Source: a virus (lineage: Duplodnaviria; Caudoviricetes). Taken from it: a DNA stretch of 64,000 nt. The translations under genes were made by a program, and so were the position numbers. The notes beneath the pieces were generated by a model. It worked only from the letters and a program-made list of their open reading frames with translations. It was not told the origin of the DNA and searched no databases. Location: positions 96,001 to 160,000 of the IMG/VR virus record IMGVR_UViG_3300031992_000018; one strand, given 5' to 3'. This document shows, piece after piece, positions 25,505-49,068 of this stretch (positions are counted from its first letter, which is position 1; each line of letters begins with the position of its first letter).

Positions 25505-25535
25505 AAAAAGAGCTCTTTTTAAAGAGCTCTTTTTT
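25505..25535. terminator. Bidirectional terminator
   Basis: aaaaagagctcttt...aaagagctcttttt between convergent genes. Confidence 0.75.
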
Positions 25536-27196
25536 TATTTTTCTTCTCTACTATGTTTATTGTATTCTGATGAATGAAATTCTTCTTCAAAAGTATGTTT
25601 AGCACCAGGATTAATCATATAAGCCATTTTTGCCATTATATCTCTATTAAGAAGAACTGGTGTTGATTTCTTTCTATTATCAACAAGAGCAAAATCTACA
25701 TTAAGTAATTTTCTTGAACCAATCTGAATACAAGGTACTATTACAGTAACTCTTTCTTCACGTACTTGTCCAACTATAGGGTTTGAAACCCCACTTTTCT
25801 TAAATCTATATGTTTTACCATTTATAACTGCTGATACTTTATCTCCAACTACTTCAACTGATTCACAACCAATTGTAGAAGCTTTAGCGCCATTACCTGT
25901 ATCAAATTTAGCTTCAAGTTCAAATTCTGAATCATTATCCATAATAAACTTCATATTTTCAATATAACCAATTGATTTAGGTGCAAGTACAAGCTCATTA
26001 ATATCATTGATTGCATCAAGAAGTATCTTACAGAAATTTTCTCCAATTACTTCAGAAATACCTTCTGTACCTGGAGAGCAGTTATATTCAAGAACAACAT
26101 TATCTCCAATCTCTGGATTAGAACCTTTTACAAGAGGCATAATATCAACAGCACACCAAGGCATACCTGAAATCTTTGCTACATTTAATGCAATATCTTC
26201 TTGTTCTTTAGTAATTTCAACTTTTTCAGCTTCTGCACCAAGAGATACATTACTTCTGAAATCACCACCAAGTTTCTTTCTCTTCATACATGCAAGAATT
26301 GTTTGTTTTGTTCTGCTTGTAAGAACATGCACTCTGATATCACCACCATCAGCTTCTTCTTTCTTTTGAAGAAGTAATTCTCTTTCAGGGTCAATAGCAA
26401 ATATTGCTTGAAGAATTGCAAGAATACCTTTACCTGTTGTCATGAATACACCTGTTCCACCATGACCATCAAGAATCTTTACAACATATTCTCTCTTTTC
26501 ATCTTCTTCTTTATTTTCACCTACTTCTTTATAAATAAGTTTAAGTTTCTTCTGAAGAGATTCTTCACCTTTAGATACATCTTTTGAAGAAAGAAGACAG
26601 AATTTTGGTTGTGGAATATCATATCTTTTCATAAGAACAGCTGAAGCATATTTATTACTTGCTCTTTTAGCTGCTTGAATTGGATTAAGAACAAAAAGAC
26701 CCCAATCTTGAAGTTCTTTAATACATTCCATACATTCTTCACTATCTTGTGCACCAAGACGTGCAATAACTATTGTATCTATATTTGATTGATCTGTTAT
26801 AGTAAATTTCTCTTTAGAATCTTTAATTTCAATTTTCTTATCATCTGCACTATAATCAACTTCTTCAGAAACAAATGTTATAAGATTTACATCTGTATTT
26901 TTAAGTGCATCTTGAAGGTTTTTAAGAGTTTTATTTTTTGAAGCATCTCTTTCATTTGTAAAGAAGATAATATTCTTAAAGAAATATTCTTCATTTCTTT
27001 TTATTTTTTCAGCATTCTGTACAGTATCATTTTTTGCACCTAATTGTTCAGCTGCTTGATCAACTGCTTGGTCTTCTGAACCAGGTTTTTCTGGATTTTT
27101 TTCTGCACCAGTATTTTCTTCTGCTTCTAAAATAGATTCTACTTCATCTATTGATTTAATAAATTTTGATTCTAAAAGTTCAGTTAAAGTTTTCAT
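25535..27196 (-). CDS. RimK-family ATP-grasp ligase fused to a RimB-like (retropepsin-like) peptidase
   Basis: VVK..DGHGG.GV, DIRV, FRSNVSLG, AVDIM, VLEYNCSPG; C-terminal AKFDTGNG, LLNRD; leader MKTLTELLE. Confidence 0.85.
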   Translation of the reverse strand: MKTLTELLESKFIKSIDEVESILEAEENTGAEKNPEKPGSEDQAVDQAAEQLGAKNDTVQNAEKIKRNEEYFFKNIIFFTNERDASKNKTLKNLQDALKNTDVNLITFVSEEVDYSADDKKIEIKDSKEKFTITDQSNIDTIVIARLGAQDSEECMECIKELQDWGLFVLNPIQAAKRASNKYASAVLMKRYDIPQPKFCLLSSKDVSKGEESLQKKLKLIYKEVGENKEEDEKREYVVKILDGHGGTGVFMTTGKGILAILQAIFAIDPERELLLQKKEEADGGDIRVHVLTSRTKQTILACMKRKKLGGDFRSNVSLGAEAEKVEITKEQEDIALNVAKISGMPWCAVDIMPLVKGSNPEIGDNVVLEYNCSPGTEGISEVIGENFCKILLDAINDINELVLAPKSIGYIENMKFIMDNDSEFELEAKFDTGNGAKASTIGCESVEVVGDKVSAVINGKTYRFKKSGVSNPIVGQVREERVTVIVPCIQIGSRKLLNVDFALVDNRKKSTPVLLNRDIMAKMAYMINPGAKHTFEEEFHSSEYNKHSREEK

Positions 27197-27285
27197 ATAT
27201 ATTTTATAAAAAATTTATCTATATAAAAATAAAAGATAAAAGAATAAATATCTATATTATATAAGAAATATATTTAAGATAATGA

Positions 27286-27855
27286 ATGATAAATTCAAAG
27301 TTAAATGATTATTTATATAATATAGATAATTTAAGAAATATTGACCGTTATCAAATAGCTCATAAGATTACAAAAGAAACAGTTGCTGAACATTCTTTTT
27401 TTGTTGCTTCTTATATATTAAAACTTCATGATTATTATAATTTTAATTTAGAGAAGGCACTTACTATGGGTTTACTTCATGATTTTAGTGAAGTATTTAT
27501 TAGTGATGTACCTCATCCAATTAAGATGGCTTTTCCTGATATAAATAAACAATTAGAAAAAGCTGAATATGATATGAATAGTAAATATATATCTAAGGAT
27601 TTTGCTGATAATCTTGAAGAATTTAATAATCTTACGACTGTTGAAGGTAAAATTGTAAATGTAGCTGATATTCTTTCAGTTATATCATATTCTAAATATG
27701 AAATATCTCTTGGAAATTCTCAATATATGAAAGATGTTCTTAATAGAGGATTAATGAGAATTAAAGATGCTCTTGATTTAATTGAAGATAATATAAAACC
27801 AGAATATAAAACATTTGATATATTATCTGAAATTATTGATTTTTCAAAACGATAA
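27286..27855 (+). CDS. HD-domain 5'-deoxynucleotidase (YfbR-like)
   Basis: R.I.RY, ETVAEHSF, LLHDFSE...SDVPHP.K, ADILS. Confidence 0.85.
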   Translation: MINSKLNDYLYNIDNLRNIDRYQIAHKITKETVAEHSFFVASYILKLHDYYNFNLEKALTMGLLHDFSEVFISDVPHPIKMAFPDINKQLEKAEYDMNSKYISKDFADNLEEFNNLTTVEGKIVNVADILSVISYSKYEISLGNSQYMKDVLNRGLMRIKDALDLIEDNIKPEYKTFDILSEIIDFSKR

Positions 27856-27927
27856 TTATATATTAGATTATATGGAGAAATATAGTCTATATAATCTATG
27901 TTTTAAAATATATTACAAATTAAATAT

Positions 27928-30900
27928 ATGAGTAAAAGAAAAGATCTTAAAAAGATTATGGTCATAGGTAGTGGTCCAATTGTAATTGGTCAAGCTGCCG
28001 AATTTGATTATGCTGGTACACAAGCATGTCTTGCACTTAAAGAAGAAGGATATGAAGTTATTCTTGTAAATTCTAATCCAGCAACAATTATGACAGATAC
28101 TAATATTGCTGATAAGGTTTATATGGAACCTTTGACTTTTGATTATGTATCTAAAATTATTTATAAAGAACGTCCAGATGGTATTGTACCAGGTCTTGGT
28201 GGTCAGACAGGATTAAATCTTGTAACAGAACTTTCACAAAAAGGTGTTCTTGATGAATGTGGTGTAGAAGTTCTTGGTACATCATTTGAAAGTATAAATA
28301 TTGCTGAAGACAGAGAAAAATTTAAAAACTTTTGTATTGATAATAATATTCCTGTAATTCCTTCGGAGATTGTACATGATATTCAAGGTGCTATTAATGC
28401 AGCATCTTCAATTGGATATCCTGTTGTTCTTCGTCCAGCATTCACTCTTGGTGGAACAGGTGGTGGATTTGCTTATAATGAAGATGAATTAAAGGAACAT
28501 ATGATAAATGCTCTTAATCTTTCACCTATTCATCAGGTACTTATAGAAAAGAGTGTAAAAGGTTATCGTGAGATTGAATTTGAAGTAATGAGAGATAACA
28601 ATAACAATGCTATATGTATTTGTGGAATGGAAAATGTTGATCCTGTTGGAATTCATACAGGTGATTCAATTGTTGTTGCTCCATGTATAACAGTTTGTAA
28701 AAATGATTATGAAAGGTTAAAAAATGATGCTTTAAAGATTATTAAGAAATTACAAATTGCTGGTGGATGTAATGTACAGTTTGCTCTTTCTCAAGAAGAT
28801 GAAGATAAATATTATATTATTGAAATTAATCCTCGTGTATCTCGTTCATCAGCTCTTGCATCAAAAGCATCTGGTTATCCTATTGCAAGAGTAACTGCTA
28901 AGATTGCTGTTGGTTATAATCTTAATGAAATAAATCTTGATGATCATACAGCATTGTTTGAACCTTGTCTTGATTATATAATTGCTAAATTCCCAAGATT
29001 TCCATTTGATAAATTTGAAGAAGCTAAAGATGAACTTTCAACTCAGATGAAAGCAACTGGTGAAGTTATGTCAATTGGTAAAACTCTTGAAGAAGCTTTC
29101 TTAAAGGGTCTTAGAAGTCTTGAAACAAAAACATATCATTTATATAATTCTAAATTTGATCATTTTAAGAAACAAGAACTTATTGAATATATTTCAACTG
29201 ATGCATATGATAAGATTTTTGCTATAGCACAACTTCTTAGGATTGGTGTATCTGTAAAAGAAATATTTAATAAGACAATGATATGTGAAGATTTTTTAGT
29301 AGCATTTAGAAATATTGTTGAATTTGAAGAGAAGGTAGAACATTATGGCAAAGATGAAAATGCTGATTTTGGTGATATAATTTATAGAGCAAAGTTATTA
29401 GGTTTTTCTGATGAAGAAATAGCTCATCTTATAGATACAGATCCTTATGAAATTACTAAATATCGTTTAGATAATGGTTATGTACCAAAATATAGAATAG
29501 TTGATTGTTATTGTTATAGATATTCTATTGATATAAATGGTAAAGAATATGAACATAAGAGATCAATTCCTTATTTCTATTCAACATATAATGATCTTGT
29601 AGAAAATGAATCAGTAAGAAGTAATAAAAAGAAAATCATAGTTCTTGGTTCTGGTCCTATACGTATTGGTCAAGGTGTAGAATTTGACTATTCTACAGTA
29701 CATGCAATATGGGCTATCAAGAATATGGGTTATGAAGCTATTATCATTAATAACAATCCTGAAACAGTTTCAACAGACTACACTATTTCTGATAAACTTT
29801 ATTTTGAACCTCTTACTGTTGAGGATGTAATGAATGTAATTAATTTTGAAAAACCTGATGGAGTAATTGTATCTCTTGGTGGACAAACAGCAGTAAATCT
29901 TGCTAATCCTCTTTCTAAGTTCAATATTCCAATTATAGGTACTGGAATTGAAGCAATTAATAATGCTGAAGATAGAAAGATTTTTGAAAGCATTCTTGAA
30001 GAACTTAATATTCCTCAACCAAAAGCTATTGCTGTAACAAATATTGAAGATGGTTTAAAAGCTGCTAATGAAATTGGTTATCCAGTACTTGTTCGTCCAA
30101 GTTTTGTTCTTGGTGGTCGTGCAATGATGATTGTTGGTAATGATGATACTCTTAAGCATTATCTTGCTAATGCTGTTGCTCTTGATGAAAAATCTCCAGT
30201 TCTTATTGATAAATATATACAAGGTATTGAGTGTGAAGTAGATGCAATATGTGATGGAGAAACAGTACTTATTCCAGGTATAATGGAACATATTGAAAGA
30301 ACTGGTGTTCATTCTGGAGACTCTATAAGTATATATCCTTCAGTTAAATTAACTGATATAAATAAACAAAGGATTATTGAATATACAAAGAAACTTGGTG
30401 TAAGAATTGGTATTAAAGGATTATTTAATATTCAATATATTGCTAATGGTGATGATATTTATGTTATTGAGGTAAATCCAAGAAGTTCTAGAACAATTCC
30501 ATTCTTAAGTAAGTCTACTAATATTCCTATGGCAAAAATTGCTACAGAAATAATGTTAGGTAAGAAATTAGTTGATTATGGATATCCTGAATATATTCCT
30601 GAAAAGAATTCATATTTTATCAAAACTCCTGTATTTTCATTTAATAAACTTATAGGTGTTGAGTCATATTTGTCACCAGAGATGAAATCTACAGGTGAGG
30701 CGATAGGTATTGATAAAACTTTCACAAAAGCTCTCCAGAAGAGTTTGTGCGCCTCTGGATTAAAGATTAAAGACCATGGTACGATATTCGTAAGTGTATA
30801 TGATGATGATCGTGAAGAAGTATTACCTATTATAAAGAGATTTTATGATTTAGGATTTAATATTGAATCTATAAATGGTACAGCTACTTTCTTAAAAGAA

Positions 30901-31149
30901 CATGGTATACATACTAAGACTCTTAAGAATCTTTCATATTATGATCTTATTAGAAATGGACACTTTACATATATAATCAATAGGATTAATGTAAATCAGC
31001 ATTCATCTCATCTTGATGATTATGGTATTCGTCACGTTGCTACTGAATGTAATGTACCAGTATTTACATGTCTTGATACAGTAAATGCACTTCTTGATGT
31101 TATTGAAGATATAACATTAAACGTTAATGATATTACTAAATTCAATTAA
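27928..31149 (+). CDS. carB: Carbamoyl-phosphate synthase large subunit
   Basis: 1073 aa; IGSGPIVIGQAAEFDYAGTQA, duplicated ATP-grasp halves (EINPRVSRS, EVNPRSSRT), GSGPIRIGQGVEFDY, C-terminal MGS-like domain. Confidence 0.97.
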   Translation: MSKRKDLKKIMVIGSGPIVIGQAAEFDYAGTQACLALKEEGYEVILVNSNPATIMTDTNIADKVYMEPLTFDYVSKIIYKERPDGIVPGLGGQTGLNLVTELSQKGVLDECGVEVLGTSFESINIAEDREKFKNFCIDNNIPVIPSEIVHDIQGAINAASSIGYPVVLRPAFTLGGTGGGFAYNEDELKEHMINALNLSPIHQVLIEKSVKGYREIEFEVMRDNNNNAICICGMENVDPVGIHTGDSIVVAPCITVCKNDYERLKNDALKIIKKLQIAGGCNVQFALSQEDEDKYYIIEINPRVSRSSALASKASGYPIARVTAKIAVGYNLNEINLDDHTALFEPCLDYIIAKFPRFPFDKFEEAKDELSTQMKATGEVMSIGKTLEEAFLKGLRSLETKTYHLYNSKFDHFKKQELIEYISTDAYDKIFAIAQLLRIGVSVKEIFNKTMICEDFLVAFRNIVEFEEKVEHYGKDENADFGDIIYRAKLLGFSDEEIAHLIDTDPYEITKYRLDNGYVPKYRIVDCYCYRYSIDINGKEYEHKRSIPYFYSTYNDLVENESVRSNKKKIIVLGSGPIRIGQGVEFDYSTVHAIWAIKNMGYEAIIINNNPETVSTDYTISDKLYFEPLTVEDVMNVINFEKPDGVIVSLGGQTAVNLANPLSKFNIPIIGTGIEAINNAEDRKIFESILEELNIPQPKAIAVTNIEDGLKAANEIGYPVLVRPSFVLGGRAMMIVGNDDTLKHYLANAVALDEKSPVLIDKYIQGIECEVDAICDGETVLIPGIMEHIERTGVHSGDSISIYPSVKLTDINKQRIIEYTKKLGVRIGIKGLFNIQYIANGDDIYVIEVNPRSSRTIPFLSKSTNIPMAKIATEIMLGKKLVDYGYPEYIPEKNSYFIKTPVFSFNKLIGVESYLSPEMKSTGEAIGIDKTFTKALQKSLCASGLKIKDHGTIFVSVYDDDREEVLPIIKRFYDLGFNIESINGTATFLKEHGIHTKTLKNLSYYDLIRNGHFTYIINRINVNQHSSHLDDYGIRHVATECNVPVFTCLDTVNALLDVIEDITLNVNDITKFN

Positions 31150-31192
31150 TAAAAATTACTATATTAAATAAAATTAAAATAATTTATATAAT

Positions 31193-32971
31193 ATGAAGAG
31201 TTTACTTTTAACACTTGGACATAATTCATCCGCAATTTTTGTAGAAGATGGTAAAACACCTATTGGTTATGAAGAAGAAAGATTAACAGGTATTAAATCT
31301 GATTCACAGTTTCCTACTGATGCAATTCATGAAATTGCTAGAAATGTAGGTATTAAGAATATGAAAGGTTGTAAGATATTTATTTCACATTGGTTTGATT
31401 TTATTCCTAATGTAATACCTAATAAATATATTACTCAGACTGATATTGACAATCTTAAAGAAATTTCTGATGATATTACCTTTGTATCTCCAGAATTTAC
31501 ACATCATGATGCTCATGCTTATGCTGGTAAGAGTTTCTTTGATTATCATTTCTCAAAGTTAAATACTGATCCTTATTGTGATGTTTCTCTTAAACTTCAG
31601 CAGAATAAAGATATTTATGTTATTGTAGCTGATGGTTTTGGTAATAATGGTGAGGTTCTTTCAGTTTATAAAATTAATGATTATTTAAATAATAGATTTA
31701 GTAATCTTAATCTTGAACATAGAGTTTATGGATATAAGAATTCTATTGGTCTTATGTATCAGTATGCAACTTCTTATGTTGGTATGAAAGAAAATCAAGA
31801 TGAGTATAAATTCCTTGGATATGAAGCTCATATTGATGAATATCTTAATAAATATAAGATTGATATTCTTGATGCATATATCAAAGAACTTGTAAATACT
31901 CTTTGGGAAGGATTTGAAAGAGATACTAATACTAATGTATATAAAAAGTGTGAATATTTAATTAATTTTGATTCACTTAAAGAAACTAAAGAATATTTCC
32001 ATAATATCTTTAGAGAAGCATATGAGACAGTATGGAAAGCTGATGATAAAGCAAAATATTCAAAAGAAGATAATGAATTTATTCAGAGAAGTATTGTAGC
32101 ATATTATCTTCAGCAGACAGTAGAACAATTCTTTGGTAAGGTTGTTGAAAAGTTTAATATACAGAATGTAGTTGTAGTTGGTGGTTCATTCTATAATGTA
32201 AAACTTAATAATTATATTTTTGAACATACTAATGGTGTATATTGTGCAATGCCTCTTGCAGGTGACCAAGGTGCTGCTATAGGTCTTTATTACTATTATA
32301 CTGGTGAACAATTCAATTTTGAAACACTTTGTATTGGTAAGAGAAATTTCTATGGTGCTGAAAAGGTATTTAAGAAGAATTTCTATAGAGAAGCTACTGA
32401 TGAACTTGCAAAAGAAATAGCAAGAAAGATTGCTGATGGATATATTGTAGATCTTGTACATGGTTCTATGGAATTTGGTCCTCGTGCTCTTATGCATACA
32501 TCAAGTTTATTTATTCCTACAGTAGAGAATACTGCTCAGAATAATTCAAATAATCTTAGAAATGAAGTAATGCCTTGTGCGCCAGTTCTAACAAAAAAGA
32601 ATGCTGAATTTTTATTTGGTAAAGAAAGTATTAATCGTGTTGTTGGTAGTGATGAATTTATGATTCTTACACATACTTATAAGAGAGGATATTCAGAACT
32701 TTATGGTGGTGTAATGCATAAGATTGTCCTTAAAGATGGTTATTCTGGTCGTCCACAAATTGTAAGAGAAGGAACATTTGAAGAGAAGATTCTTAAATAT
32801 GTTGAAGAACTTGCAGATATTAAATGTCTTGTCAACACATCTTATAACAAGCATGGTACACCTATTCTTTATTCAATGAAGCAAATTAAAGATGACTACA
32901 ATTTCCAAGTTGAACATTCACAAATGAATGGTTACAAGAAGTCTCCTTTACTTTATGTAGTTGAAGATTAA
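31193..32971 (+). CDS. Carbamoyltransferase, NodU/CmcH family (putative 5-hydroxymethylcytosine carbamoyltransferase)
   Basis: EEERL..IK, HHDAHA, DGFG, EYKFLG, GDQGAAIG, EFGPRAL, NTSYN.HG.P. Confidence 0.92.
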   Translation: MKSLLLTLGHNSSAIFVEDGKTPIGYEEERLTGIKSDSQFPTDAIHEIARNVGIKNMKGCKIFISHWFDFIPNVIPNKYITQTDIDNLKEISDDITFVSPEFTHHDAHAYAGKSFFDYHFSKLNTDPYCDVSLKLQQNKDIYVIVADGFGNNGEVLSVYKINDYLNNRFSNLNLEHRVYGYKNSIGLMYQYATSYVGMKENQDEYKFLGYEAHIDEYLNKYKIDILDAYIKELVNTLWEGFERDTNTNVYKKCEYLINFDSLKETKEYFHNIFREAYETVWKADDKAKYSKEDNEFIQRSIVAYYLQQTVEQFFGKVVEKFNIQNVVVVGGSFYNVKLNNYIFEHTNGVYCAMPLAGDQGAAIGLYYYYTGEQFNFETLCIGKRNFYGAEKVFKKNFYREATDELAKEIARKIADGYIVDLVHGSMEFGPRALMHTSSLFIPTVENTAQNNSNNLRNEVMPCAPVLTKKNAEFLFGKESINRVVGSDEFMILTHTYKRGYSELYGGVMHKIVLKDGYSGRPQIVREGTFEEKILKYVEELADIKCLVNTSYNKHGTPILYSMKQIKDDYNFQVEHSQMNGYKKSPLLYVVED

Positions 32972-32975
32972 TTTA

Positions 32976-33008
32976 AAAAAGCCTCTAAATTATTAGAGGC
33001 TATTTTTC
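32976..33008 (+). terminator. Intrinsic terminator
   Basis: agcctctaa-a-ttattagaggct inverted repeat plus T-run. Confidence 0.65.
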
Positions 33009-33040
33009 TATATTAATATATATTAAATTATAGAATAGTT

Positions 33041-33673
33041 ATGAATTGTCCAAAGGTTTTAGTATTTACAGGTGGTTGTTATTCAGGTAAAACAACTTCA
33101 ATGCAAGTTATAAAAGAAATACTTGAAGAAAAAGGTAAAAATGTTATATTTCTTGATGAACTTATTCGTCGTCATAAGATAGGTTCTATTGATGAGATTC
33201 GTCGTGATCCTAATAAATATATGGAATTACAGAATGATATCATTAGAGGTAAAATGGATAGTGAAAAATATTCATATAAAAACTTTAATGAAAATACTGT
33301 TATTCTTGTTGATAGAAGTGTAACAGATTCATTGTTCTATTTAACATTTTATGTTGATAAGAATTCATTAGATATTGAACATCAAAAGCAATTTATAACT
33401 TTATTTAATGATTTAAATGATTATCTTGATACAGTATCAGATATATATACTTATATATTTGAATTTACTCCTTTAAAAGAAGTAATTGAAAATGATAATT
33501 TTAGACCACAAAATCTAAAAGATTTACAAAACATAGAATATAAAATGATTAAGAAATATAATCTTTTATATTTTCATAATCATAGTGGATATATGAGTAT
33601 TGATTTAAATAATGTATCTAAAGATAATATGAAAGAATATTGGAAAAATTTACTTGATTGGATGAATATATGA
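33041..33673 (+). CDS. P-loop nucleotide kinase-like protein (AAA_28/thymidylate kinase-like)
   Basis: TGGCYSGKTT, LVDRSVTDSLFY. Confidence 0.75.
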   Translation: MNCPKVLVFTGGCYSGKTTSMQVIKEILEEKGKNVIFLDELIRRHKIGSIDEIRRDPNKYMELQNDIIRGKMDSEKYSYKNFNENTVILVDRSVTDSLFYLTFYVDKNSLDIEHQKQFITLFNDLNDYLDTVSDIYTYIFEFTPLKEVIENDNFRPQNLKDLQNIEYKMIKKYNLLYFHNHSGYMSIDLNNVSKDNMKEYWKNLLDWMNI

Positions 33674-34446
33674 TATTTCCAGATATAGAATATTTACATT
33701 TAACTAATAATTGGAAAAGAATATTTGAAGATTTTAGTTATAAATGTGAAATATATAAAGATTATTATGAATGTTTAAACTATTCATATAAAATATCTCC
33801 AATGATTGATTATTGCATGAGTTATTTTACTAATCTATTTGATTTAGATAAAGCAAAAGCAATATATAATTGGTATAGAAATCATGATTCAAGAGATCAT
33901 TCTATTGAAGAATATTTTGATGAATATAAAAGATGTACAGATGAAACTCATTTAGATTTTAATTCTAATTATGGGTTATATGCTTATTCTCCAGAAGGTC
34001 TTGATAAATGTATAAAACGTCTTGGAGAAAATAATGATACTCGTCAAGCAATGTTTTGTATAAATAACAATGAAGCAATGTCTGATAGAAGTATAGATAA
34101 ACTTTGTACTAATACTGTTCAATTTTATATAAGAAGAAATAAATTAATTATGGTAGTACAAATGAGAGCAAGTAATATGATTACTCTTTTACCATATGAT
34201 TCATTTATGTTTTGTTATTGGTATTTTTATGTATTTAATAAATTATATAATGAATATGATTTAAAAAATCTTGAACTTAATTATATTTATATTAATGTAT
34301 CAAGTATTCATTACTATATAGATAATTTAGAAAAGATTAATAAGGATAATAAAGACGTTAAATTTATCAATGATTTATTTGATGATTATAAAGATCCTGA
34401 TTTTATAAATATATTTGATAAAAAGATAAATGGACAATACAGTTGA
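33658..34446 (+). CDS. Divergent thymidylate-synthase-fold / dCMP hydroxymethylase paralogue
   Basis: NSNYG, DTRQA, KLCTNTVQFYIR, QMRASN, LPYD, SSIHYY. Confidence 0.8.
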   Translation: MDEYMIFPDIEYLHLTNNWKRIFEDFSYKCEIYKDYYECLNYSYKISPMIDYCMSYFTNLFDLDKAKAIYNWYRNHDSRDHSIEEYFDEYKRCTDETHLDFNSNYGLYAYSPEGLDKCIKRLGENNDTRQAMFCINNNEAMSDRSIDKLCTNTVQFYIRRNKLIMVVQMRASNMITLLPYDSFMFCYWYFYVFNKLYNEYDLKNLELNYIYINVSSIHYYIDNLEKINKDNKDVKFINDLFDDYKDPDFINIFDKKINGQYS

Positions 34447-35137
34447 TATTTTAAATCAATTTAAAGAAAAGTATAAAAATGGTGAATTCAGATATATTAA
34501 TGGAACTACAAAAACAGTAGAAATTCAAAATGCACATTTTATATGTGATAAAGATTATATTTTAAGAGAACCAAATTATGAATATGCTAGAAGAGAGATT
34601 GCATGGTATGATACAATGTCTTTATATGTAAAAGATATTCCTGATAAGATACCAGTAATTTGGCAGAATGTTTCTGATATAAATGGTAAGATTAATTCAA
34701 ATTATGGTTGGTGTATTTATTCAGAAGAAAATGGTTCACAATATAAAAATTGTTTATATAATTTAATTCATGATACTTGTTCAAGACAAGCAGTAATGAT
34801 ATATACTAGACCATCAATGCATAATGATGCTAATAAAAACCATATGCATGATTTTATGTGTACATTTGCAACACAGTGTTTTTTAAACAAAGTTGAAGAT
34901 GGTTATTCTTTAAAGTATATAGTTTATCAAAGAAGTAGTGATGCTGTATTTGGTTTTAATAATGATCATCTTTGGCATAAAGAAGTACAAAAAAGATTAG
35001 CTGATGATTTAGAGAAAGAATTTAATAAAATAAAAAATGAAAGTGATGAACATATCCATGTACATTGTGAACCAATAGAATTTAATTGTGGATCAATTCA
35101 TGTTTATGAAAGACATTTTCAATATTTGGAGGATTAA
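34430..35137 (+). CDS. dCMP hydroxymethylase (T4 gp42-like)
   Basis: YARREIAWY, INSNYGW, DFMCT, QRSSDAVFGFNND (Asp at the dCMP-specificity position), GSIHVYERHF. Confidence 0.88.
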   Translation: MDNTVDILNQFKEKYKNGEFRYINGTTKTVEIQNAHFICDKDYILREPNYEYARREIAWYDTMSLYVKDIPDKIPVIWQNVSDINGKINSNYGWCIYSEENGSQYKNCLYNLIHDTCSRQAVMIYTRPSMHNDANKNHMHDFMCTFATQCFLNKVEDGYSLKYIVYQRSSDAVFGFNNDHLWHKEVQKRLADDLEKEFNKIKNESDEHIHVHCEPIEFNCGSIHVYERHFQYLED

Positions 35138-35140
35138 TTT

Positions 35141-35659
35141 ATGAGAAATTTTGATTATCAATATCTTAGAATTGCTAAAATTTGGAGTGAGAATTCTTAT
35201 TCAAGAAGAAATAAAGTAGGTGCTATTATAGTAAAAGATGGTATGATTATTTCTGATGGTTATAATGGTACACCAGCAGGATTTGATAATAATTGTGAAA
35301 ATGAAGTAAAATGTGATGTTGATTGGGATGAACTTATTTCTGCATTAGATAATGGATCTTCTGTATGTGCTGCATATAATAGAGATTGTAATAAATGTCC
35401 TCATCATTATCTTGTTACAAAACCAGAAGTACTTCATGCAGAAGCTAATGCTATTACAAAAGTAGCAAAATCTACTAATTCTTCAGATGGAAGTACATTA
35501 TATGTAACATTATCTCCTTGTATTGAATGTGCAAAACTTATTATTCAAGCAGGTATTAAAAGAGTTGTATATAATGATGTTTATAGAAATACTGACGGTC
35601 TTGAATTACTTAAGAAAGCAGGTATTGAATTAGTACAAATAAAAGATATAAATGATTAA
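35141..35659 (+). CDS. dCMP deaminase
   Basis: KVGAIIVKD, GYNGTP, HAEANAI, SPCIECAK. Confidence 0.93.
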   Translation: MRNFDYQYLRIAKIWSENSYSRRNKVGAIIVKDGMIISDGYNGTPAGFDNNCENEVKCDVDWDELISALDNGSSVCAAYNRDCNKCPHHYLVTKPEVLHAEANAITKVAKSTNSSDGSTLYVTLSPCIECAKLIIQAGIKRVVYNDVYRNTDGLELLKKAGIELVQIKDIND

Positions 35660-35661
35660 TT

Positions 35662-35844
35662 ATGTTAAGTAAAAATGATTTAATATTTTTAGGAGCATCT
35701 ATAATTATAGGAGCAGATGTAAATAGAAATGGTGTTCAATTTAGTACAAATAATAGTATATCAAAAGCTATTGAATTATCATCAAAATTATTTGATAATA
35801 TATTTAAAGATGATAATAGTAAAGATGAAATGATTTTAGAATAA
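35662..35844 (+). CDS. Small hypothetical protein
   Basis: 60-aa ORF in operon. Confidence 0.45.
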   Translation: MLSKNDLIFLGASIIIGADVNRNGVQFSTNNSISKAIELSSKLFDNIFKDDNSKDEMILE

Positions 35845-35885
35845 TTCTATATTAATATAATGTAACGTTTACAAAAAGAAAGAAT

Positions 35886-37047: not shown

Positions 37048-37105
37048 ATTTTTAAATATATTAATAAGTAATTACTATATTAATATATAATATATTTTAA
37101 ATATT

Positions 37106-37579: not shown

Positions 37580-38335
37580 ATGAATATACTTATAACAGGA
37601 AACAGAGGATTTATTGGTGGACATTTATCTAAATATTTAAAGGATAAAGGTCATAATATTATAGGTATAGATAGAAAAGATGGTAATGAAGTATTAGATA
37701 TTAATGAAGATACTTTAAAAGATATTGATATTATAATCCATTTAGCAGCACAAACATCAGTTTGGAATACTAATATTGAATTAATAGAAAATGATAATAT
37801 AAAATCTTTTATTCATATATTTAATTTATGTAAAAAACTTAATAAAAGATTTATATATGCAAGCAGTTCATGTTCGATAAATATAACATCGATGTATGGA
37901 TTAAGTAAATATTTTGATGATTTATATTTTGAAATTTATAAATGGGATAAATGTATTGGATTAAGATTTCATAATGTATATGGTAAAGATTCAAGAGAAG
38001 ATACATTATTAGGAATTTGTTTAAATAATTCAGAAATTACATTATATAATAATGGACTTAATTATAGACATTTTACTTATATAGATGATGTATGTAAAAG
38101 TATAGAAATGTCTTTTAATTTAAAATCTTGTATATATAATGTATTTAATCCTCAAGAAAATTCAGTATTAGAATTTGTCAATGAAGTTTTAAAATATAAA
38201 GATTTAAAAATTAATTTAATTGATTCTATAAGAGAACTTGATAAAGAAAAACAGCTTATAGATGATACTAAAATAAATTTAATAGAAAATAATTATAAAA
38301 ATATAAAAATAGGCATAAATGAGATATTTAGGTAA
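37580..38335 (+). CDS. NAD-dependent epimerase/dehydratase
   Basis: ITGNRGFIG, HLAA, YASS, YGLSK, LRFHNVYG, RHFTYIDDV. Confidence 0.9.
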   Translation: MNILITGNRGFIGGHLSKYLKDKGHNIIGIDRKDGNEVLDINEDTLKDIDIIIHLAAQTSVWNTNIELIENDNIKSFIHIFNLCKKLNKRFIYASSSCSINITSMYGLSKYFDDLYFEIYKWDKCIGLRFHNVYGKDSREDTLLGICLNNSEITLYNNGLNYRHFTYIDDVCKSIEMSFNLKSCIYNVFNPQENSVLEFVNEVLKYKDLKINLIDSIRELDKEKQLIDDTKINLIENNYKNIKIGINEIFR

Positions 38336-39242
38336 ATTTACTTCAGAAACTGAAATACAAAATGCATTAGATAATAATGAATTATTAAATCCTTATATTG
38401 CATTATATAATAATGCATTAAATATAGATATTAATACAAAAACACCACATGATTATTCTCAAGATTATTTAACATTTGTTATTTTATCTGGTTTAGGAGA
38501 GATTTCTCCACAATATGATGGAATTGAATTTTCTAAGGATAATGGAGAATCATGGCAAGATTGGACTATAAGTGGTGAACAAGGAGATAGAATTTTAGTA
38601 AGAGGAAATTTTAAAAATGGAAGTGCAACTAATGGATTTTTTAATATAGTAGATTCACATTTTTATGCAATTCCAGAAGATTTTACATATAATGTAGAAG
38701 GTAATATATTATCAATATATGATTCAGAAAATTTTAGAACATTAACTGAAATTGAAAATACTACTTTTGAAGGATTTTTTTTTAATTTAGATGGTTTAAT
38801 TTCAGCAAAAAATCTTATATTACCATTAACAACTTTAACACAAGATTGTTATAAATTAATGTTTAAAGGTTGTGTAAATCTTACTACTGCGCCTGAACTT
38901 CCTGCTACTGTATTATCAAATGATTGTTATTTAGAAATGTTTGATGGTTGTGTAAATTTAAATTATATTAAATGTCTTGCTTTAAATATATCTACTAGTA
39001 TTTATTTTGGTTTACAAGAATATAGTTCAGGTTCAGGTTCAGGTTCAGGTTCAGGTTCAGGTTCAGGTTCTGGTTCAGGTTCAGGTTCTGGTTCAGGTTC
39101 TGGATCAAGTTCTGAAACAGGTTCAATATCTAAAACATTTATTATAAATAATAATTTTGATGGTAATCCATATGACTTGTTTAATATACCATATTCATGG
39201 AATGTATATTATGAAAATGGTACACAATATATTAATGAATAA
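38319..39242 (+). CDS. Putative fibre or surface protein with LRR-like repeats and (SG)n tract
   Basis: CY..MF.GC..L.TAPELPAT repeats; (SG)13 tract. Confidence 0.65.
   Translation: MRYLGKFTSETEIQNALDNNELLNPYIALYNNALNIDINTKTPHDYSQDYLTFVILSGLGEISPQYDGIEFSKDNGESWQDWTISGEQGDRILVRGNFKNGSATNGFFNIVDSHFYAIPEDFTYNVEGNILSIYDSENFRTLTEIENTTFEGFFFNLDGLISAKNLILPLTTLTQDCYKLMFKGCVNLTTAPELPATVLSNDCYLEMFDGCVNLNYIKCLALNISTSIYFGLQEYSSGSGSGSGSGSGSGSGSGSGSGSGSGSSSETGSISKTFIINNNFDGNPYDLFNIPYSWNVYYENGTQYINE
39027..39106 (+). repeat. (TCAGGT/TCTGGT)n hexamer repeat encoding Ser-Gly
   Basis: Directly visible tandem hexamers. Confidence 0.95.
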
Positions 39243-39265
39243 AGAAATATAATAATAATATATAT

Positions 39266-41554: not shown

Positions 41555-41557
41555 TAT

Positions 41558-42478
41558 ATGAAATGTTGTATAATTGCCATAGCAAAAAAAGAAAATAAGT
41601 ATATTCAAGAATGGGTTAATTATCATCTTAATTTAGGATTTGATAATATAATAATTTGTGATAATAATGATACAGGTGATGAAAAAATATCAGATGTAAT
41701 TAATGATGATAAGGTAATTATTTTAAATTATTTTAACTTTAAAAATATACAACCAACTGCATATACAAAATGTTTTTTAAAATATAAAGATACATATGAT
41801 TGGCTGGCATTTATAGATATAGATGAATTTATTATATTAGATAAAAAATACGATAATAATATAAAGAATTTTTTATCAGATAATATATTTAAAAATGCAG
41901 ATATTATAAGATTATGTTATAAGTTTTTTACTGGTGGAAATAAGTTAGATGTTGAAAATAATGACTATTCTTTAATGAGTAGATTTACTGAAGAATTTGA
42001 TACTATAGAAAATACATGGGGTAAATCAATTATTAAAAACACAATTAAATATATTCCTAATACTAGATTTTATGGGCACGGGTATGCAACTAATAAAAAT
42101 AATGTAGCTTATTCGGCTGATGGAAATATATGTAAAAATGATTGGATTATTGTAAGTGAAGAACCTATATATGTTAATGCTTGGATAAATCATTATCCAA
42201 CAAAAACAATTGGAGAATATGTAAGACAAAAATATTTTCGTGGTGGTCCAAATAATAACAACAATAAATATAAATCATTAAATTATTTTTTCAGATATAA
42301 TAAAAAAACAGATAAATTATTTAAATATGGTATTAAATTAATTAATTCATATAAACAAGAAATAGAGAAGAAAAAAATCAAAACTAATAAACAAGAAATA
42401 GAGAAGAAAAAAATCAAAACTAAAATTAATACTTTAGTTATTTCTAATAATTTATTAATAAGTAAAGAGATTGATTAA
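41558..42478 (+). CDS. Glycosyltransferase (GT2-like/GT92, DUF23 type)
   Basis: E..YI.EWV.YHL.LGFD.I.I.DN, WLAFIDIDEF, KSII, NHY.TK. Confidence 0.85.
   Translation: MKCCIIAIAKKENKYIQEWVNYHLNLGFDNIIICDNNDTGDEKISDVINDDKVIILNYFNFKNIQPTAYTKCFLKYKDTYDWLAFIDIDEFIILDKKYDNNIKNFLSDNIFKNADIIRLCYKFFTGGNKLDVENNDYSLMSRFTEEFDTIENTWGKSIIKNTIKYIPNTRFYGHGYATNKNNVAYSADGNICKNDWIIVSEEPIYVNAWINHYPTKTIGEYVRQKYFRGGPNNNNNKYKSLNYFFRYNKKTDKLFKYGIKLINSYKQEIEKKKIKTNKQEIEKKKIKTKINTLVISNNLLISKEID
42351..42422 (+). repeat. 36-bp perfect tandem duplication (KQEIEKKKIKT x2)
   Basis: 42351-42386 equals 42387-42422. Confidence 0.9.
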
Positions 42479-42532
42479 TTCAATCTCTTTTTTCTATATT
42501 AATATATATATATAATTTTTACTTTTATAAAT

Positions 42533-43171: not shown

Positions 43172-43234
43172 ATCTCATTGAATAAAATCAATGAGGTTTT
43201 CTATTTTATAATAGTAATAGTAAATAGTTTAATT

Positions 43235-44068: not shown

Positions 44069-44259
44069 ATTACCTTTAATTAATGGTTTTGATGGAACAA
44101 CAAGTAAAATAACTGATGATAAATGGCTAATTTGTATACATCAATTTGAACATTGTAAATACCAAGCTTCTGTTGGAGATGGAGCATGTTTAATATGTAC
44201 AAATTATCCAGAATGTTTAAAAGAAGGATGTTTTATTGAAGAAAAATAATAAAATAATT

Positions 44260-45044: not shown

Positions 45045-45046
45045 TT

Positions 45047-45451: not shown

Positions 45452-45454
45452 AAT

Positions 45455-48980: not shown

Positions 48981-49068
48981 ATAATATTTTATATAATAAT
49001 CTATATAAAAATAAAATTAAATATTATTACATTTCTATATTAAAATAGAAATATATCTATTTATATGC

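What the first reader, a model, noticed from the sequence alone, without database searches (positions are those of the whole stretch)
27286..35659. Self-sufficient carbamoyl-cytosine DNA modification cluster with a phage-encoded carbamoyl-phosphate synthase
Seen: seven co-oriented genes, namely a YfbR-like HD nucleotidase, full-length CarB, a NodU/CmcH carbamoyltransferase, a P-loop kinase, two thymidylate-synthase-fold genes and dCMP deaminase. Established: T4 gp42-type enzymes make 5hm-dCMP; NodU-family enzymes transfer carbamoyl from carbamoyl phosphate and ATP to hydroxyls; phage carbamoyltransferases acting on 5hmC to give 5-carbamoyloxymethylcytosine have been reported. Inference: dCMP goes to 5hm-dCMP, is phosphorylated and carbamoylated at nucleotide or DNA level, while the HD enzyme and deaminase drain unmodified dC nucleotides. 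The unusual parts are a 3.2-kb carB directly upstream of the transferase, implying a dedicated donor supply for genome-wide anti-restriction modification rather than a pyrimidine/arginine auxiliary gene, and a second TS paralogue. ThyX at 49069 covers dTMP synthesis, freeing both TS-fold genes for modification.
Basis: partly seen in the sequence, partly recalled or inferred. Interest (0 to 1): 0.88.

Follow-up and report, generated by a model that had tools for sequence, protein, structure and literature searches.

The report
Phage cytosine-carbamoylation cluster with captured CarB
A T4-like giant phage of gut/rumen Bacteroidales carries the known gene set for carbamoylating modified cytosine in its DNA, plus its own captured carbamoyl-phosphate synthase and a second, rewired thymidylate-synthase-like enzyme, so the published two-enzyme route may be incomplete.

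Summary
In detail: all seven genes are intact, co-oriented and at the stated coordinates. The core idea was published in 2021: a gp42-type dCMP hydroxymethylase plus a NodU-type carbamoyltransferase (CT) gives 5-carbamoyloxymethylcytosine.

Three things go beyond that paper.
1. **carB is a real phage gene.** It was captured once from Bacteroidales. Its catalytic sites are intact, its UMP/IMP site is remodelled, and no carA was found. It lies about 45 nt upstream of the CT in seven related contigs (an eighth is truncated). More distant CT-bearing phages lack it, so it is an accessory donor supply, not a requirement.
2. **The second TS gene (TS1) is not a duplicate.** It keeps the cysteine, the phosphate-binding residues and Asp177, but has lost Glu58 and Trp80 and carries D169N. 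D169N was proposed in 2026 as diagnostic of flavin/O2-dependent 5-hydroxy-dCMP synthases.
3. **CT, a thymidylate-kinase-fold kinase and TS1 form a fixed triad.** The triad defines a CT clade that has never been assayed.

The final base is therefore uncertain: 5cmC is most likely, and a 5-hydroxycytosine carbamate is possible. The scan has noted similar clusters before on other DNA. Verdict: new variant of a known kind.

The parts
27251..27263 (+). Variant of the recurrent promoter-like motif (TCTATATTATATA), 23 nt upstream of the HD start codon
   Evidence: Read. The consensus TCTATATTAATAT is enriched 20 vs 2.9 expected in the window.
27286..27855 (+). HD-domain phosphohydrolase, YfbR/OxsA-like (189 aa). 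Candidate (d)NMP/(d)NTP hydrolase; its substrate is unknown.
   Evidence: PF12917 76.8 bits. PHROG 7076 'dATP triphosphohydrolase' 1.4e-22. PDB 3mzo, 1xx7, YfbR and OxsA. NCBIfam 5'-deoxynucleotidase 51.7 bits, below the 122 cut-off. Present only in the window, L065 and L066. dN/dS 0.07-0.26.
27928..31149 (+). CarB, carbamoyl-phosphate synthase large subunit (1073 aa), captured from Bacteroidales. Catalytic sites are intact and the UMP/IMP effector site is remodelled.
   Evidence: equivalog cut-offs passed; a phage clade at 82-100% identity, then Bacteroidales at 64-65%; monophyletic, support 1.0; all 14 catalytic residues checked are kept; T974I/V, K993N, T1016R and a 5-aa deletion; dN/dS 0.12-0.21.
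31193..32971 (+). NodU/CmcH/TobZ-type O-carbamoyltransferase (592 aa), member of a phage clade that has not been assayed
   Evidence: PF02543 plus PF16861. PHROG 1601. PDB NovN-like, GdmN and TobZ. Tree. Distant from the characterised enzyme. dN/dS about 0.2.
32980..33001 (+). Stem-loop just after the CT stop codon. The structure is kept while the stem sequence differs in six relatives. Probable terminator or attenuator separating two units.
   Evidence: 9-bp stem. (different stems at the same place in L065, L061/L074, L068, L067 and L063).
33007..33019 (+). Promoter-like motif TCTATATTAATAT, 21 nt upstream of the kinase start codon
   Evidence: exact copies also lie before the OmpA-like gene (35846) and the methyltransferase (42493), and a one-mismatch copy before ThyX (49034). 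The motif is conserved in relatives.
33041..33673 (+). P-loop nucleotide kinase of thymidylate-kinase/NadR-RNK/dNK fold (210 aa). Probable kinase for the modified dCMP.
   Evidence: AAA_28. AF2 pLDDT 91 with Foldseek top hits to thymidylate kinases, NadR and dNK. Always follows the CT in the 29-member clade. Natural kinase-TS1 fusion P0246.
33658..34446 (+). TS1: diverged thymidylate-synthase-fold enzyme (262 aa). It keeps Cys146, Tyr94, Arg126, Arg166, His207, Tyr209 and Asp177. It has Glu58->Ile, Trp80->Tyr, Ser167->Ala and Asp169->Asn.
   Evidence: AF2 pLDDT 91.3; Foldseek to T4 dCH, MilA and HY126 AfhB. dN/dS 0.15-0.45.
34430..35137 (+). TS2: gp42-type dCMP hydroxymethylase (235 aa)
   Evidence: E 2.6e-51 to T4 dCH 1b49. 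45% identity to T4 gp42 over 209 aa. Glu58, Trp80, L143D, Cys146, Asp169 and N177D all present.
35141..35659 (+). dCMP deaminase (172 aa)
   Evidence: PF00383 83.6 bits. PHROG 174 2.3e-55.
35662..35844 (+). 60-aa ORF of unknown function, last gene of the second unit; conserved in L065
49069..50067 (+). ThyX (flavin-dependent thymidylate synthase) behind the same promoter-like motif; supplies dTMP
   Evidence: PF02511 65.4 bits. Motif at 49034.
25535..27196 (-). RimK-family ATP-grasp ligase (553 aa), divergently transcribed. It is a conserved neighbour of the cluster in the jumbo clade, and it is unproven whether it belongs to the pathway.
   Evidence: Conserved upstream in L065, L061, L074, L076, L067 and the P0027 locus.

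Best explanation
This is a two-unit cytosine hypermodification cluster of a T4-like jumbo phage that infects Bacteroidales. Unit 2 (kinase, TS1, TS2, dCMP deaminase) works at the nucleotide level. TS2 converts dCMP to 5-hydroxymethyl-dCMP. The deaminase sends the remaining dCMP to dUMP, and ThyX makes dTMP for a genome that is 75% A+T. The thymidylate-kinase-fold kinase phosphorylates modified dCMP so that it can be polymerised. TS1 acts on a cytosine nucleotide by covalent Cys catalysis without folate and makes a second product, not yet identified. Unit 1 (HD, CarB, CT) does the carbamoylation. The NodU-type CT uses carbamoyl phosphate and ATP to O-carbamoylate the C5 hydroxymethyl group, and possibly a C5 hydroxyl group, on the triphosphate or on newly made DNA. 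This most likely gives 5-carbamoyloxymethylcytosine throughout the genome. CarB, captured from the host lineage and altered at its UMP/IMP site, makes the carbamoyl phosphate on site, probably from ammonia or with the host CarA. The modification would then not depend on a host enzyme that pyrimidines shut down. What is shown: gene identities, active-site residues, synteny, single capture and purifying selection. What is inferred: substrates, the order of steps, loss of feedback control, and the final base.
For: - **TS2:** it has every gp42 determinant.
- **CT chemistry:** a homologous phage CT needs carbamoyl phosphate, ATP and 5hmC, and acts on ssDNA and 5hmdCTP (PMC8670742). The same Pfam co-occurrence it reports (TS, dCMP deaminase) is seen here.
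- **carB-CT linkage:** carB sits 43-46 nt upstream of the CT in the window, L065, L066, L061, L068, L074 and L075, and in truncated L076. This was found starting from the CT and starting from CarB.
- **CarB origin:** 13 phage CarB clusters are monophyletic (support 1.0) and sister to Bacteroidales CarB at 64-65% identity.
- **Tree pattern:** on the CT tree carB marks one 5-member subclade.
- **CarB integrity:** the catalytic residues are intact and dN/dS is 0.12-0.21. The effector residues T974, K993 and T1016, kept in Bacteroidales, are replaced in all five phage copies examined, which also share a 5-aa deletion. The domain is still under purifying selection.
- **No other user of carbamoyl phosphate:** no aspartate or ornithine carbamoyltransferase was found in the 168-kb record.
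- **Kinase:** it has the nucleotide-kinase fold, and natural kinase-TS1 and kinase-TS fusions exist.
- **Shared control:** both units and ThyX carry the same promoter-like motif.
Against: - There are no chemical data on any member of this CT clade. On a 60-aa motif the assayed enzyme groups with the clade that has only a gp42-type TS (73% to L053 vs 44% to the window).
- carB is missing from L067, L063, the P0027 locus and 49 other CT-bearing virus records, so host supply normally suffices.
- No carA or GATase is in the record, and the record is only about 59% complete.
- TS1's role is unexplained by the simple 5cmC route, yet TS1 is the gene most tightly linked to the CT.
- Loss of UMP control is inferred from residue changes alone.
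- No MazG-type dCTPase was found, so full replacement of C is not assured.
Confidence: 0.6

Rival explanations
1. The CT of this clade acts mainly on the product of TS1, not on 5hmC. TS1 would be a 5-hydroxy-dCMP synthase or a maker of another new modified dCMP, the adjacent kinase would activate that product, and the CT would carbamoylate it. The result would be, for example, 5-carbamoyloxycytosine, with 5hmC from TS2 as a parallel or separate modification.
For: - TS1 has D169N with N177D, Cys146 and L143D. D169N was proposed as diagnostic, and all nine further naturally occurring D169N homologues tested made 5hodC in vivo (PMC13326640).
- PDB 9IQC/9IQU (HY126 AfhB hydroxylase) shows the same Asn-to-Asp spacing and matches the TS1 model at TMt 0.70.
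- The D169N mutant of TS cannot open the folate ring (PDB 1BJG title).
- Verified 5hodCMP synthases also have a thymidylate-kinase-like gene in the same cluster.
- CT-kinase-TS1 is an invariant adjacent triad in a 29-member CT clade (SH-aLRT 100), while TS2 lies further away in the 50-kb phages.
- A natural kinase-TS1 fusion lies next to a CT.
- This CT clade has not been assayed.
Against: - Verified 5hodCMP synthases use a flavin and molecular O2. The hosts here are inferred to be strict anaerobes: Bacteroidales for CarB, and Bacteroides fragilis for the cultured relatives.
- TS1 lacks Glu58, which RB69 gp48 keeps.
- Within the TS1 family position 169 is Asn in 19, Asp in about 5 and His in 3 of about 27 cluster representatives, so it is not the family's defining residue.
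- TS1 is only 27% identical to gp48 and 32% to gp42.
- Every genome of the clade with enough flank still keeps a gp42-type TS.
Confidence: 0.2
2. carB is a general auxiliary metabolic gene that boosts host UMP or arginine synthesis during infection, which is the published reading of viral carB. On this view its position next to the CT is an accident of where it inserted.
For: - Viral carB has been catalogued as a new AMG of UMP synthesis in marine viruses (PMC11360552).
- The phage invests heavily in nucleotide metabolism: ThyX, dCMP deaminase and a dUTPase-family gene here, and NrdD, NDK and IMPDH in relatives.
- Most CT-bearing phages manage without carB.
Against: - The position immediately upstream of the CT is kept in all 7-8 contigs examined, despite dS of 0.5-1.1 and rearranged flanks: HD present or absent, a 288-aa ORF instead, and RimK present or absent.
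- No ATCase, OTCase or other pyrimidine de novo gene was found in the record.
- The UMP/IMP site, which defines pyrimidine-pathway control, is the part that changed.
- carB shares a transcription unit with the CT.
Confidence: 0.12
3. The carbamoyltransferase modifies something other than nucleic acid, such as a sugar, a glycan or a virion protein, as most NodU/CmcH/TobZ enzymes do. The TS genes beside it would then serve plain hmC synthesis.
For: - The closest solved relatives carbamoylate small molecules: novobiocin, geldanamycin and tobramycin.
- A sugar-nucleotide and glycosyltransferase set lies 6-14 kb downstream: RmlC, RmlD, an epimerase, GT2/GT92 and a methyltransferase.
Against: - Across 57 viral loci and the close clade, the CT's constant neighbours are TS-fold genes, a nucleotide kinase and dCMP deaminase, not sugar genes.
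- A member of the same phage CT group is proven to act on 5hmC.
- The sugar genes are separate units behind their own promoter motifs.
Confidence: 0.07

Closest known systems
5-hydroxymethylcytosine carbamoyltransferase / 5cmdC pathway of uncultured sewage phages (Yang et al. 2021, eLife 10:e70021; PMC8670742)
   Same: A two-domain NodU-type CT next to an Asp177 TS homologue and a dCMP deaminase in a phage. The donor chemistry (carbamoyl phosphate plus ATP) is expected to be the same.
   Different: The assayed enzyme lies in another CT clade that has only a gp42-type TS. Here there are also a dedicated CarB, an HD hydrolase, a thymidylate-kinase-fold kinase and the TS1 paralogue. The PRA-PH/MazG gene reported there as co-occurring is absent.
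T4 gp42 dCMP hydroxymethylase pathway (gp42, gp1, gp56, cd)
   Same: TS2 is 45% identical to gp42 with all determinants. dCMP deaminase is present, and the phage backbone is T4-like.
   Different: No gp1-type dNMP kinase or gp56-type dCTPase was found in the 59% of the genome in hand. Carbamoylation replaces glucosylation. dTMP comes from ThyX.
Flavin/O2-dependent 5-hydroxy-dCMP synthases (RB69 gp48, DLP3 gp80, HY126 AfhB; Lee et al. 2026, PMC13326640; PDB 9IQC/9IQU)
   Same: TS1 shares D169N, N177D, L143D/E and Cys146, loss of Trp80, a thymidylate-kinase-like gene in the cluster, and the same fold.
   Different: TS1 has lost Glu58, which gp48 keeps, and is only 27% identical. The hosts are probably anaerobes. 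The downstream transferase is a carbamoyltransferase, not a glycosyltransferase. Residue 169 varies within the TS1 family.
Bacterial CarAB carbamoyl-phosphate synthetase (E. coli, Bacteroidales)
   Same: Full four-domain large subunit with both ATP sites intact, passing equivalog thresholds.
   Different: It is encoded by a phage, without carA. The UMP/IMP contact residues are replaced and a loop is shortened. The oligomerisation and allosteric domains diverge most from the donor lineage (0.40 and 0.50 identity vs 0.72 and 0.71 for the catalytic domains).
5-hmdU DNA kinase plus glycosylase-fold enzymes of thymidine hypermodification (SP10 gp186, ViI, M6; Lee et al. 2018, PMC5889632)
   Same: A P-loop kinase tied to a TS-family hydroxymethylase. 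In some CT loci the kinase is fused to a UDG-superfamily domain, which recalls the SP10 kinase-glycosylase-fold fusion.
   Different: The window's kinase stands alone and has a small-molecule nucleotide-kinase fold. The base is cytosine. No UDG-family gene is in the record.

Membership tests
Phage 5hmC carbamoyltransferase (Yang et al. 2021) | Two-domain NodU/CmcH architecture (Carbam_trans_N plus Carbam_trans_C) | tested here: met
   PF02543 73 bits and PF16861 79 bits, both over their cut-offs.
Phage 5hmC carbamoyltransferase (Yang et al. 2021) | Encoded beside an Asp177 TS homologue and dCMP deaminase in a phage | tested here: met
   TS2 has Asp177 and Dcd is adjacent. The same holds in 57 viral loci.
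Phage 5hmC carbamoyltransferase (Yang et al. 2021) | Close kinship to the assayed enzyme | tested here: not met
   A 60-aa motif of the assayed enzyme is 73% identical to L053 (clade with only a gp42-type TS) and 44% to the window CT. The window lies in a separate 29-member clade. This was a motif-only comparison.
Phage 5hmC carbamoyltransferase (Yang et al. 2021) | Carbamoyl phosphate- and ATP-dependent carbamoylation of 5hmC in DNA or dNTP | not testable with these tools
   Needs an enzyme assay or LC-MS.
T4 gp42-type dCMP hydroxymethylase (TS2) | Catalytic Cys148, Asp179 (Ec N177D), Glu60, acidic residue at Ec L143, and folate-contact residues Trp80 and Asp169 | tested here: met
   All are present. 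E 2.6e-51 to PDB 1b49.
5-hydroxy-dCMP synthase (D169N TS homologues) (TS1) | D169N together with N177D and Cys146 | tested here: met
   TS1 reads MRASN...PYD, with the same spacing as 9IQU.
5-hydroxy-dCMP synthase (D169N TS homologues) (TS1) | Rest of the active site as in verified members (Glu58 kept in RB69 gp48) | tested here: not met
   TS1 has Ile at position 58 and gp48 has Glu. An earlier alignment had placed Phe there for gp48 and is superseded.
5-hydroxy-dCMP synthase (D169N TS homologues) (TS1) | Flavin cofactor and O2-dependent hydroxylation | not testable with these tools
   The fold matches AfhB, T4 dCH and MilA about equally (TM 0.6-0.7). The inferred anaerobic host argues against O2 chemistry.
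[quoted passage not shown] | Full domain set and both ATP-grasp catalytic residue sets | tested here: met
   NF003671 1397 bits (cut-off 599) and TIGR01369 1360 bits (cut-off 1027). The 14 residues checked are identical to E. coli.
[quoted passage not shown] | Partner small subunit CarA (glutaminase) | tested here: not met
   No PF00988 or PF00117 in the 168-kb record, and none in the flanks of seven relatives. The record is about 59% complete.
[quoted passage not shown] | UMP/IMP allosteric site residues (Ec K954, T974, T977, K993, N1015, T1016, T1017; the residue list is from my own knowledge of the E. coli structures) | tested here: not met
   T974I/V, K993N, T1016R and K954R in four of five copies, plus a 5-aa deletion. 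Bacteroidales CarB keeps T974, K993 and T1016.
YfbR-type 5'-deoxynucleotidase (HD) | Family-level HMM match and the equivalog threshold | tested here: inconclusive
   Pfam YfbR-like 76.8 bits, over its cut-off. NCBIfam equivalog 51.7 bits, under the 122 cut-off. Substrate unknown.
Nucleoside monophosphate/nucleoside kinase (thymidylate-kinase fold) | P-loop plus the thymidylate-kinase/dNK/NadR-RNK fold | tested here: met
   The motif GGCYSGKTT, an invariant Gly-Lys-Thr and a DR motif. Foldseek top hits are thymidylate kinases, NadR and dNK, TM 0.5-0.64. Substrate not testable.

The most novel reading that the evidence does not exclude
The invariant triad of CT, thymidylate-kinase-fold kinase and TS1 makes a DNA base not yet described. 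TS1, a folate-independent TS-fold enzyme with the D169N signature, would install a C5 hydroxyl or another new group on dCMP. The kinase would activate that nucleotide, and this unassayed CT clade would carbamoylate it, giving for example 5-carbamoyloxycytosine. A subclade of megaphages would then have captured and deregulated a host CarB to fuel the reaction. If the hosts are strict anaerobes, TS1 would also have to carry out this chemistry without O2, which would be a new reaction for the TS fold.
Probability: 0.2. Interest if true: 0.85.

Novelty: new variant of a known kind. Interest (0 to 1): 0.66.

Why it matters
Carbamoylated cytosine is a recently found anti-restriction DNA modification, known from one enzyme assay on a metagenomic gene. 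This locus adds three things.

- **The real pathway is larger than published.** In a large clade that includes cultured Bacteroides phages, the pathway carries a conserved nucleotide kinase and a folate-site-less TS paralogue. The published two-enzyme scheme is therefore incomplete, or the base is different.
- **A phage captured a precursor enzyme for a DNA adduct.** The phage took a 3.2-kb central-metabolism enzyme, placed it directly in front of the CT and changed its feedback site. This fits donor supply limiting genome-wide DNA modification better than the general nucleotide-boosting role assumed for viral carB in AMG catalogues.
- **It is testable.** Bacteroides fragilis phages of the same CT clade are in culture, so LC-MS of their DNA could settle the identity of the base.

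Tried and rejected
- **Isolate phages.** Near-identity search of the cluster against isolate phages found nothing. tblastn of CarB against isolate-phage records gave mostly small unannotated fragments or host-like sequence at 40-62%, judged contamination and not phage carB.
- **IMG/VR.** Pattern search with CarB found nothing (that tool finds only close relatives).
- **Promoters.** The sigma-70 scan was at chance level (81 vs 82.6 expected).
- **Kinase kinship.** The kinase showed no BLAST-level similarity to the RB69p045 nucleotide kinase; only the fold class agrees.
- **TS1 fold.** Foldseek on the TS1 model could not separate hydroxymethylase from hydroxylase.
- **The 288-aa ORF.** It overlaps carB in the L061 lineage and was tested as a possible CarA substitute. 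It has no family and no similarity to window ORFs.
- **Withdrawn reading.** RB69 gp48 lacking Glu58 was withdrawn after a dedicated alignment.
- **Not run.** A TS1/TS2 heterodimer and a CT/TS1 complex were considered, but no complex prediction was made. Paralogues of a homodimeric fold tend to pass by likeness, and no binding claim is made here.
- **Not done.** A residue-by-residue comparison with TobZ (W408, G421, R423 of Yang et al.), because no TobZ alignment could be obtained within the limits.

Full report
**1. Observation**

All are on the + strand and tightly packed, with gaps of 72, 43, 69, -16, -17 and 3 nt.
- Pfam names six of them: YfbR-like HD; a complete CarB of 1073 aa with both ATP-grasp halves, the oligomerisation domain and the MGS-like domain; a two-domain NodU/CmcH carbamoyltransferase (CT); an AAA_28 P-loop protein; a thymidylate-synthase domain (34430-35137); and dCMP deaminase.
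- The seventh, 33658-34446 (TS1), has no Pfam hit. It is TS-fold by PHROG 160, by sequence matches to T4 dCMP hydroxymethylase, and by a confident AF2 model of pLDDT 91.3.
- ThyX at 49069 is real.
- The window is part of a 168-kb IMG/VR virus record, about 59% complete. It has about 25% GC throughout, carB included, and T4-like baseplate, RnlA/gp63-like and helicase genes.

**2. What was already known**

Yang et al. 2021 (PMC8670742) showed three things. Phage NodU-type CTs co-occur with Asp177 TS homologues, PRA-PH and dCMP deaminase on cytosine-modified contigs. One such enzyme converts 5hmC to 5-carbamoyloxymethylcytosine on ssDNA, more weakly on dsDNA, and on 5hmdCTP. The reaction strictly needs carbamoyl phosphate and ATP.

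**3. TS2**

TS2 (34430-35137) matches T4 gp42 at E 2.6e-51 and is 45% identical over 209 residues. It keeps Glu58/60, Trp80, the acidic residue at L143, Cys146/148, Asp169/171 and Asp at 177/179. It is a dCMP hydroxymethylase by every sequence criterion.

**4. carB**

*It is a phage gene, captured once.*
- A search of 5.8 billion proteins gives 13 clusters at 82-100% identity, on contigs up to 465 kb. There is then a clean drop to 64-65% for Bacteroidales, Alistipes and Rikenellaceae CarB.
- In a tree the 13 are monophyletic (support 1.0, stem length 0.34) and sister to the 36 sampled Bacteroidales sequences.

*Linkage to the CT.* I tested this from both sides.
- From CT homologues of 68-95% identity: carB lies directly upstream of the CT in L065 (CT 86% identical), L066 (78%), L061 (77%, 397-kb contig) and L068 (74%). 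It is absent within 10 kb of the CT in L067 (72%), the P0027 locus (70%, 232 kb) and L063 (69%, 181 kb, with a Gp23 capsid gene).
- From phage-clade CarB proteins: L074 (295 kb) and L075 (104 kb) again have the CT about 45 nt downstream. L076 ends just after an ORF starts at that position.
- On the CT tree, carB marks one 5-member subclade (SH-aLRT 90), and the HD gene marks a nested 3-member subclade (100).
- None of 49 more distant CT-bearing virus records has a CarB (one 14-bit hit is noise).

*State of the enzyme.*
- It passes NCBIfam equivalog cut-offs.
- All 14 catalytic residues I checked in the two ATP sites equal those of E. coli in all five phage copies.
- dN/dS is 0.12-0.21.
- Against the Bacteroidales relatives, the catalytic domains keep 0.71-0.72 identity. 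The oligomerisation domain keeps 0.40 and the allosteric domain 0.50.
- The UMP/IMP contact residues T974, K993 and T1016, which Bacteroidales keep, are replaced by I/V, N and R, and a 5-residue loop is deleted.
- These changes are shared by all five copies examined. The domain is 84% identical among them and under purifying selection (dN 0.13, dS about 1.0). It is remodelled, not decaying. An earlier scan note spoke of 'erosion'; my data refine that.
- No carA, GATase, ATCase or OTCase is in the record.

*Inference.* CarB runs on ammonia, which the isolated large subunit of the E. coli enzyme is known to do, or it borrows the host CarA. It has probably escaped UMP feedback. It feeds the only carbamoyl-phosphate user in sight, the CT. 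As a rough scale, a genome of about 285 kb at 25% GC holds about 70,000 cytosines. A burst of 100 would then need several million carbamoyl phosphates (my estimate).

*The published alternative.* Viral carB has been listed as a UMP-synthesis AMG in marine viruses (PMC11360552). That fits the fixed position before the CT, and the altered pyrimidine-effector site, less well.

**5. TS1 is a family of its own**

*Signature.* Aligned with E. coli ThyA, T4 gp42 and RB69 gp48, TS1 and all its orthologues keep Tyr94, Arg126, Cys146, Arg166, His207, Tyr209 and Asp177. They have a hydrophobic residue at Glu58, Tyr at Trp80, and mostly Asn at Asp169.

*Extent.* A profile search of 1.84 billion cluster representatives finds about 27 representatives with this signature, scoring 182-362 bits. 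Position 169 is Asn in 19, Asp in about 5 and His in 3. The signature then switches sharply to the canonical gp42 type.

*Why it matters.*
- Glu58, Trp80 and Asp169 are the folate-side catalytic and contact residues, and the D169N mutant of TS cannot open the cofactor ring (PDB 1BJG title). TS1 should therefore not be a hydroxymethylase.
- Lee et al. 2026 (PMC13326640) showed that D169N TS homologues (RB69 gp48, DLP3 gp80, RL38J1 and others; HY126 AfhB is PDB 9IQC/9IQU) are flavin- and O2-dependent 5-hydroxy-dCMP synthases. They proposed D169N as diagnostic, and each has a thymidylate-kinase-like gene in its cluster.
- TS1 shares D169N, N177D, L143D and Cys146, with the same Asn-to-Asp spacing as 9IQU.
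- Its model matches AfhB (TMt 0.70), T4 dCH and MilA about equally well.

*Against membership.*
- TS1 lacks Glu58, which gp48 keeps (this corrects).
- It is only 27% identical to gp48.
- Residue 169 is not fixed within the family.
- The hosts are probably strict anaerobes, whereas the known enzymes need O2.

**6. The triad and the kinase**

- In the CT tree, one clade of 29 (SH-aLRT 100) joins the jumbo phages with about 50-kb phages that include cultured Bacteroides fragilis phages (CT 47-48% identical). Every member with enough flank has CT, kinase and TS1 adjacent, plus a gp42-type TS nearby.
- CTs outside this clade go with a gp42-type TS alone, or with a further Q58/E169 variant.
- By a 60-residue motif, the enzyme assayed in 2021 groups with the gp42-only clade (73% to L053, 44% to the window). 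The acceptor of this clade is therefore untested.
- The kinase model (pLDDT 91) matches thymidylate kinases, the NadR ribosylnicotinamide kinase and deoxynucleoside kinases.
- A natural kinase-TS1 fusion sits beside a CT, a dUTPase and a second TS. This argues that the kinase phosphorylates the TS1 product.
- In three lineages without TS1, the kinase is instead fused to a UDG-superfamily domain. This recalls the SP10 kinase-glycosylase-fold fusion and leaves a DNA-level role open. The window's record has no UDG gene.

**7. Anatomy**

- A stem-loop directly after the CT stop codon (32980-33001) is kept in six relatives with different stem sequences. It is followed by the motif TCTATATTAATAT.
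- That motif occurs 20 times in the window against 2.9 expected. It lies upstream of the start codons of the kinase, the OmpA-like gene, a methyltransferase and ThyX, and a variant precedes the HD gene.
- The cluster is thus two units, HD-CarB-CT and kinase-TS1-TS2-Dcd-orf60, under one promoter class.
- The boundary is also a recombination seam. Against L065, dS is 0.40-0.55 on the left and 0.07-0.14 on the right.

**8. The HD gene and exclusion of dC**

The HD protein is YfbR/OxsA-like and lies below the equivalog threshold. It is present in only three genomes. In the L061 lineage its slot holds a 288-aa ORF of no known family that overlaps carB by 4 nt. No MazG-type dCTPase or gp1-type kinase was found in the partial record, only a divergent dUTPase-family gene. 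A 'drain' role for the HD enzyme is possible but unsupported.

**9. Verdict**

- The best reading is a cytosine C5 O-carbamoylation pathway with a captured, deregulated CarB as donor supply (0.6).
- The most interesting open possibility is that TS1 and the kinase feed the CT a different acceptor, giving a new base (0.2).
- The rivals, carB as a general AMG (0.12) and a non-nucleic-acid acceptor (0.07), fit the synteny poorly.
- Earlier scan notes on other genomes had already flagged CT operons with a second folate-less TS gene and, once, a phage CPS. I treated these as leads only.
- New here: the two-sided linkage test; the single Bacteroidales origin of carB and its effector-site remodelling; the link between TS1 and the D169N signature together with its limits; the definition of the CT clade; the kinase fold and fusions; and the two-unit anatomy.

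Noticed in passing
window 33007-33019, 35846-35858, 42493-42505, 49034-49046, 37074-37086 and others: The motif TCTATATTAATAT occurs 20 times (up to one mismatch) against 2.9 expected. Plus-strand copies lie roughly 20-30 nt upstream of start codons. It is probably a promoter class of this phage.
   Followed up: partly
L020:11739-13022, L021, L026:11876-13144, L027:11532-12860: In CT loci that lack TS1, the AAA_28 kinase is fused to a C-terminal uracil-DNA-glycosylase-superfamily domain. This hints that some members act on bases in DNA, as in the SP10 kinase-glycosylase-fold fusion.
   Followed up: partly
L077:2147-3562 (protein P0246): A natural in-frame fusion of the kinase and TS1 (471 aa). 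It sits between a CT and a dUTPase, followed by a second TS gene.
   Followed up: yes
L061:5898-6764, L074:6138-7004, L075:6133-6999, L076:6135-7004: A 288-289-aa ORF with no detectable family abuts or overlaps the start of carB (by 4 nt in three of the four contigs) in the lineage that lacks the HD gene. Its function is unknown.
   Followed up: partly
window 25535-27196 (-): A RimK-family ATP-grasp ligase of 553 aa is divergently transcribed and conserved next to the cluster in most jumbo-clade relatives, including those without carB. Below-threshold matches include cofactor alpha-L-glutamate ligases (MptN, CofF).
   Followed up: no
window 37580-46979: A sugar-related set lies downstream: an epimerase, a GT2/GT92 glycosyltransferase (41558-42478), a methyltransferase (42533-43171), an MGS-like domain protein (44541-45044), RmlD (45455-46423) and RmlC (46404-46979). 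A 762-aa protein with a short serglycin-like stretch is among them (39266-41554). The target could be the virion, the host surface or DNA.
   Followed up: no
window 32509-33108 versus L065: Nucleotide identity to the closest relative dips to 0.73-0.80 at the CT/kinase boundary. dS is 0.40-0.55 for HD, CarB and CT but 0.07-0.14 for kinase, TS1 and TS2. The two units therefore have different histories, which indicates recombination.
   Followed up: partly
L028, L029, L031, L033, L049 (TS ORFs about 9.2-10.0 kb; L049 7806-8840): A third TS variant, with Gln at position 58 and Glu at 169 while keeping Trp80, Cys146 and Asp177, accompanies a CT and a kinase in another viral clade.
   Followed up: no
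G000:C1:85717-86415 (L069:1123-1821): A 232-aa protein whose C-terminal half is a divergent trimeric dUTPase domain behind an N-terminal extension of about 120 aa. No MazG/PRA-PH dCTPase was found in the record.
   Followed up: partly
L066:5812-6819 and L063:117-1511: A DUF7487 protein is inserted between the CT and the kinase in L066. A larger DUF7487 protein with a faint Mom-like hit lies near the capsid gene in L063.
   Followed up: no
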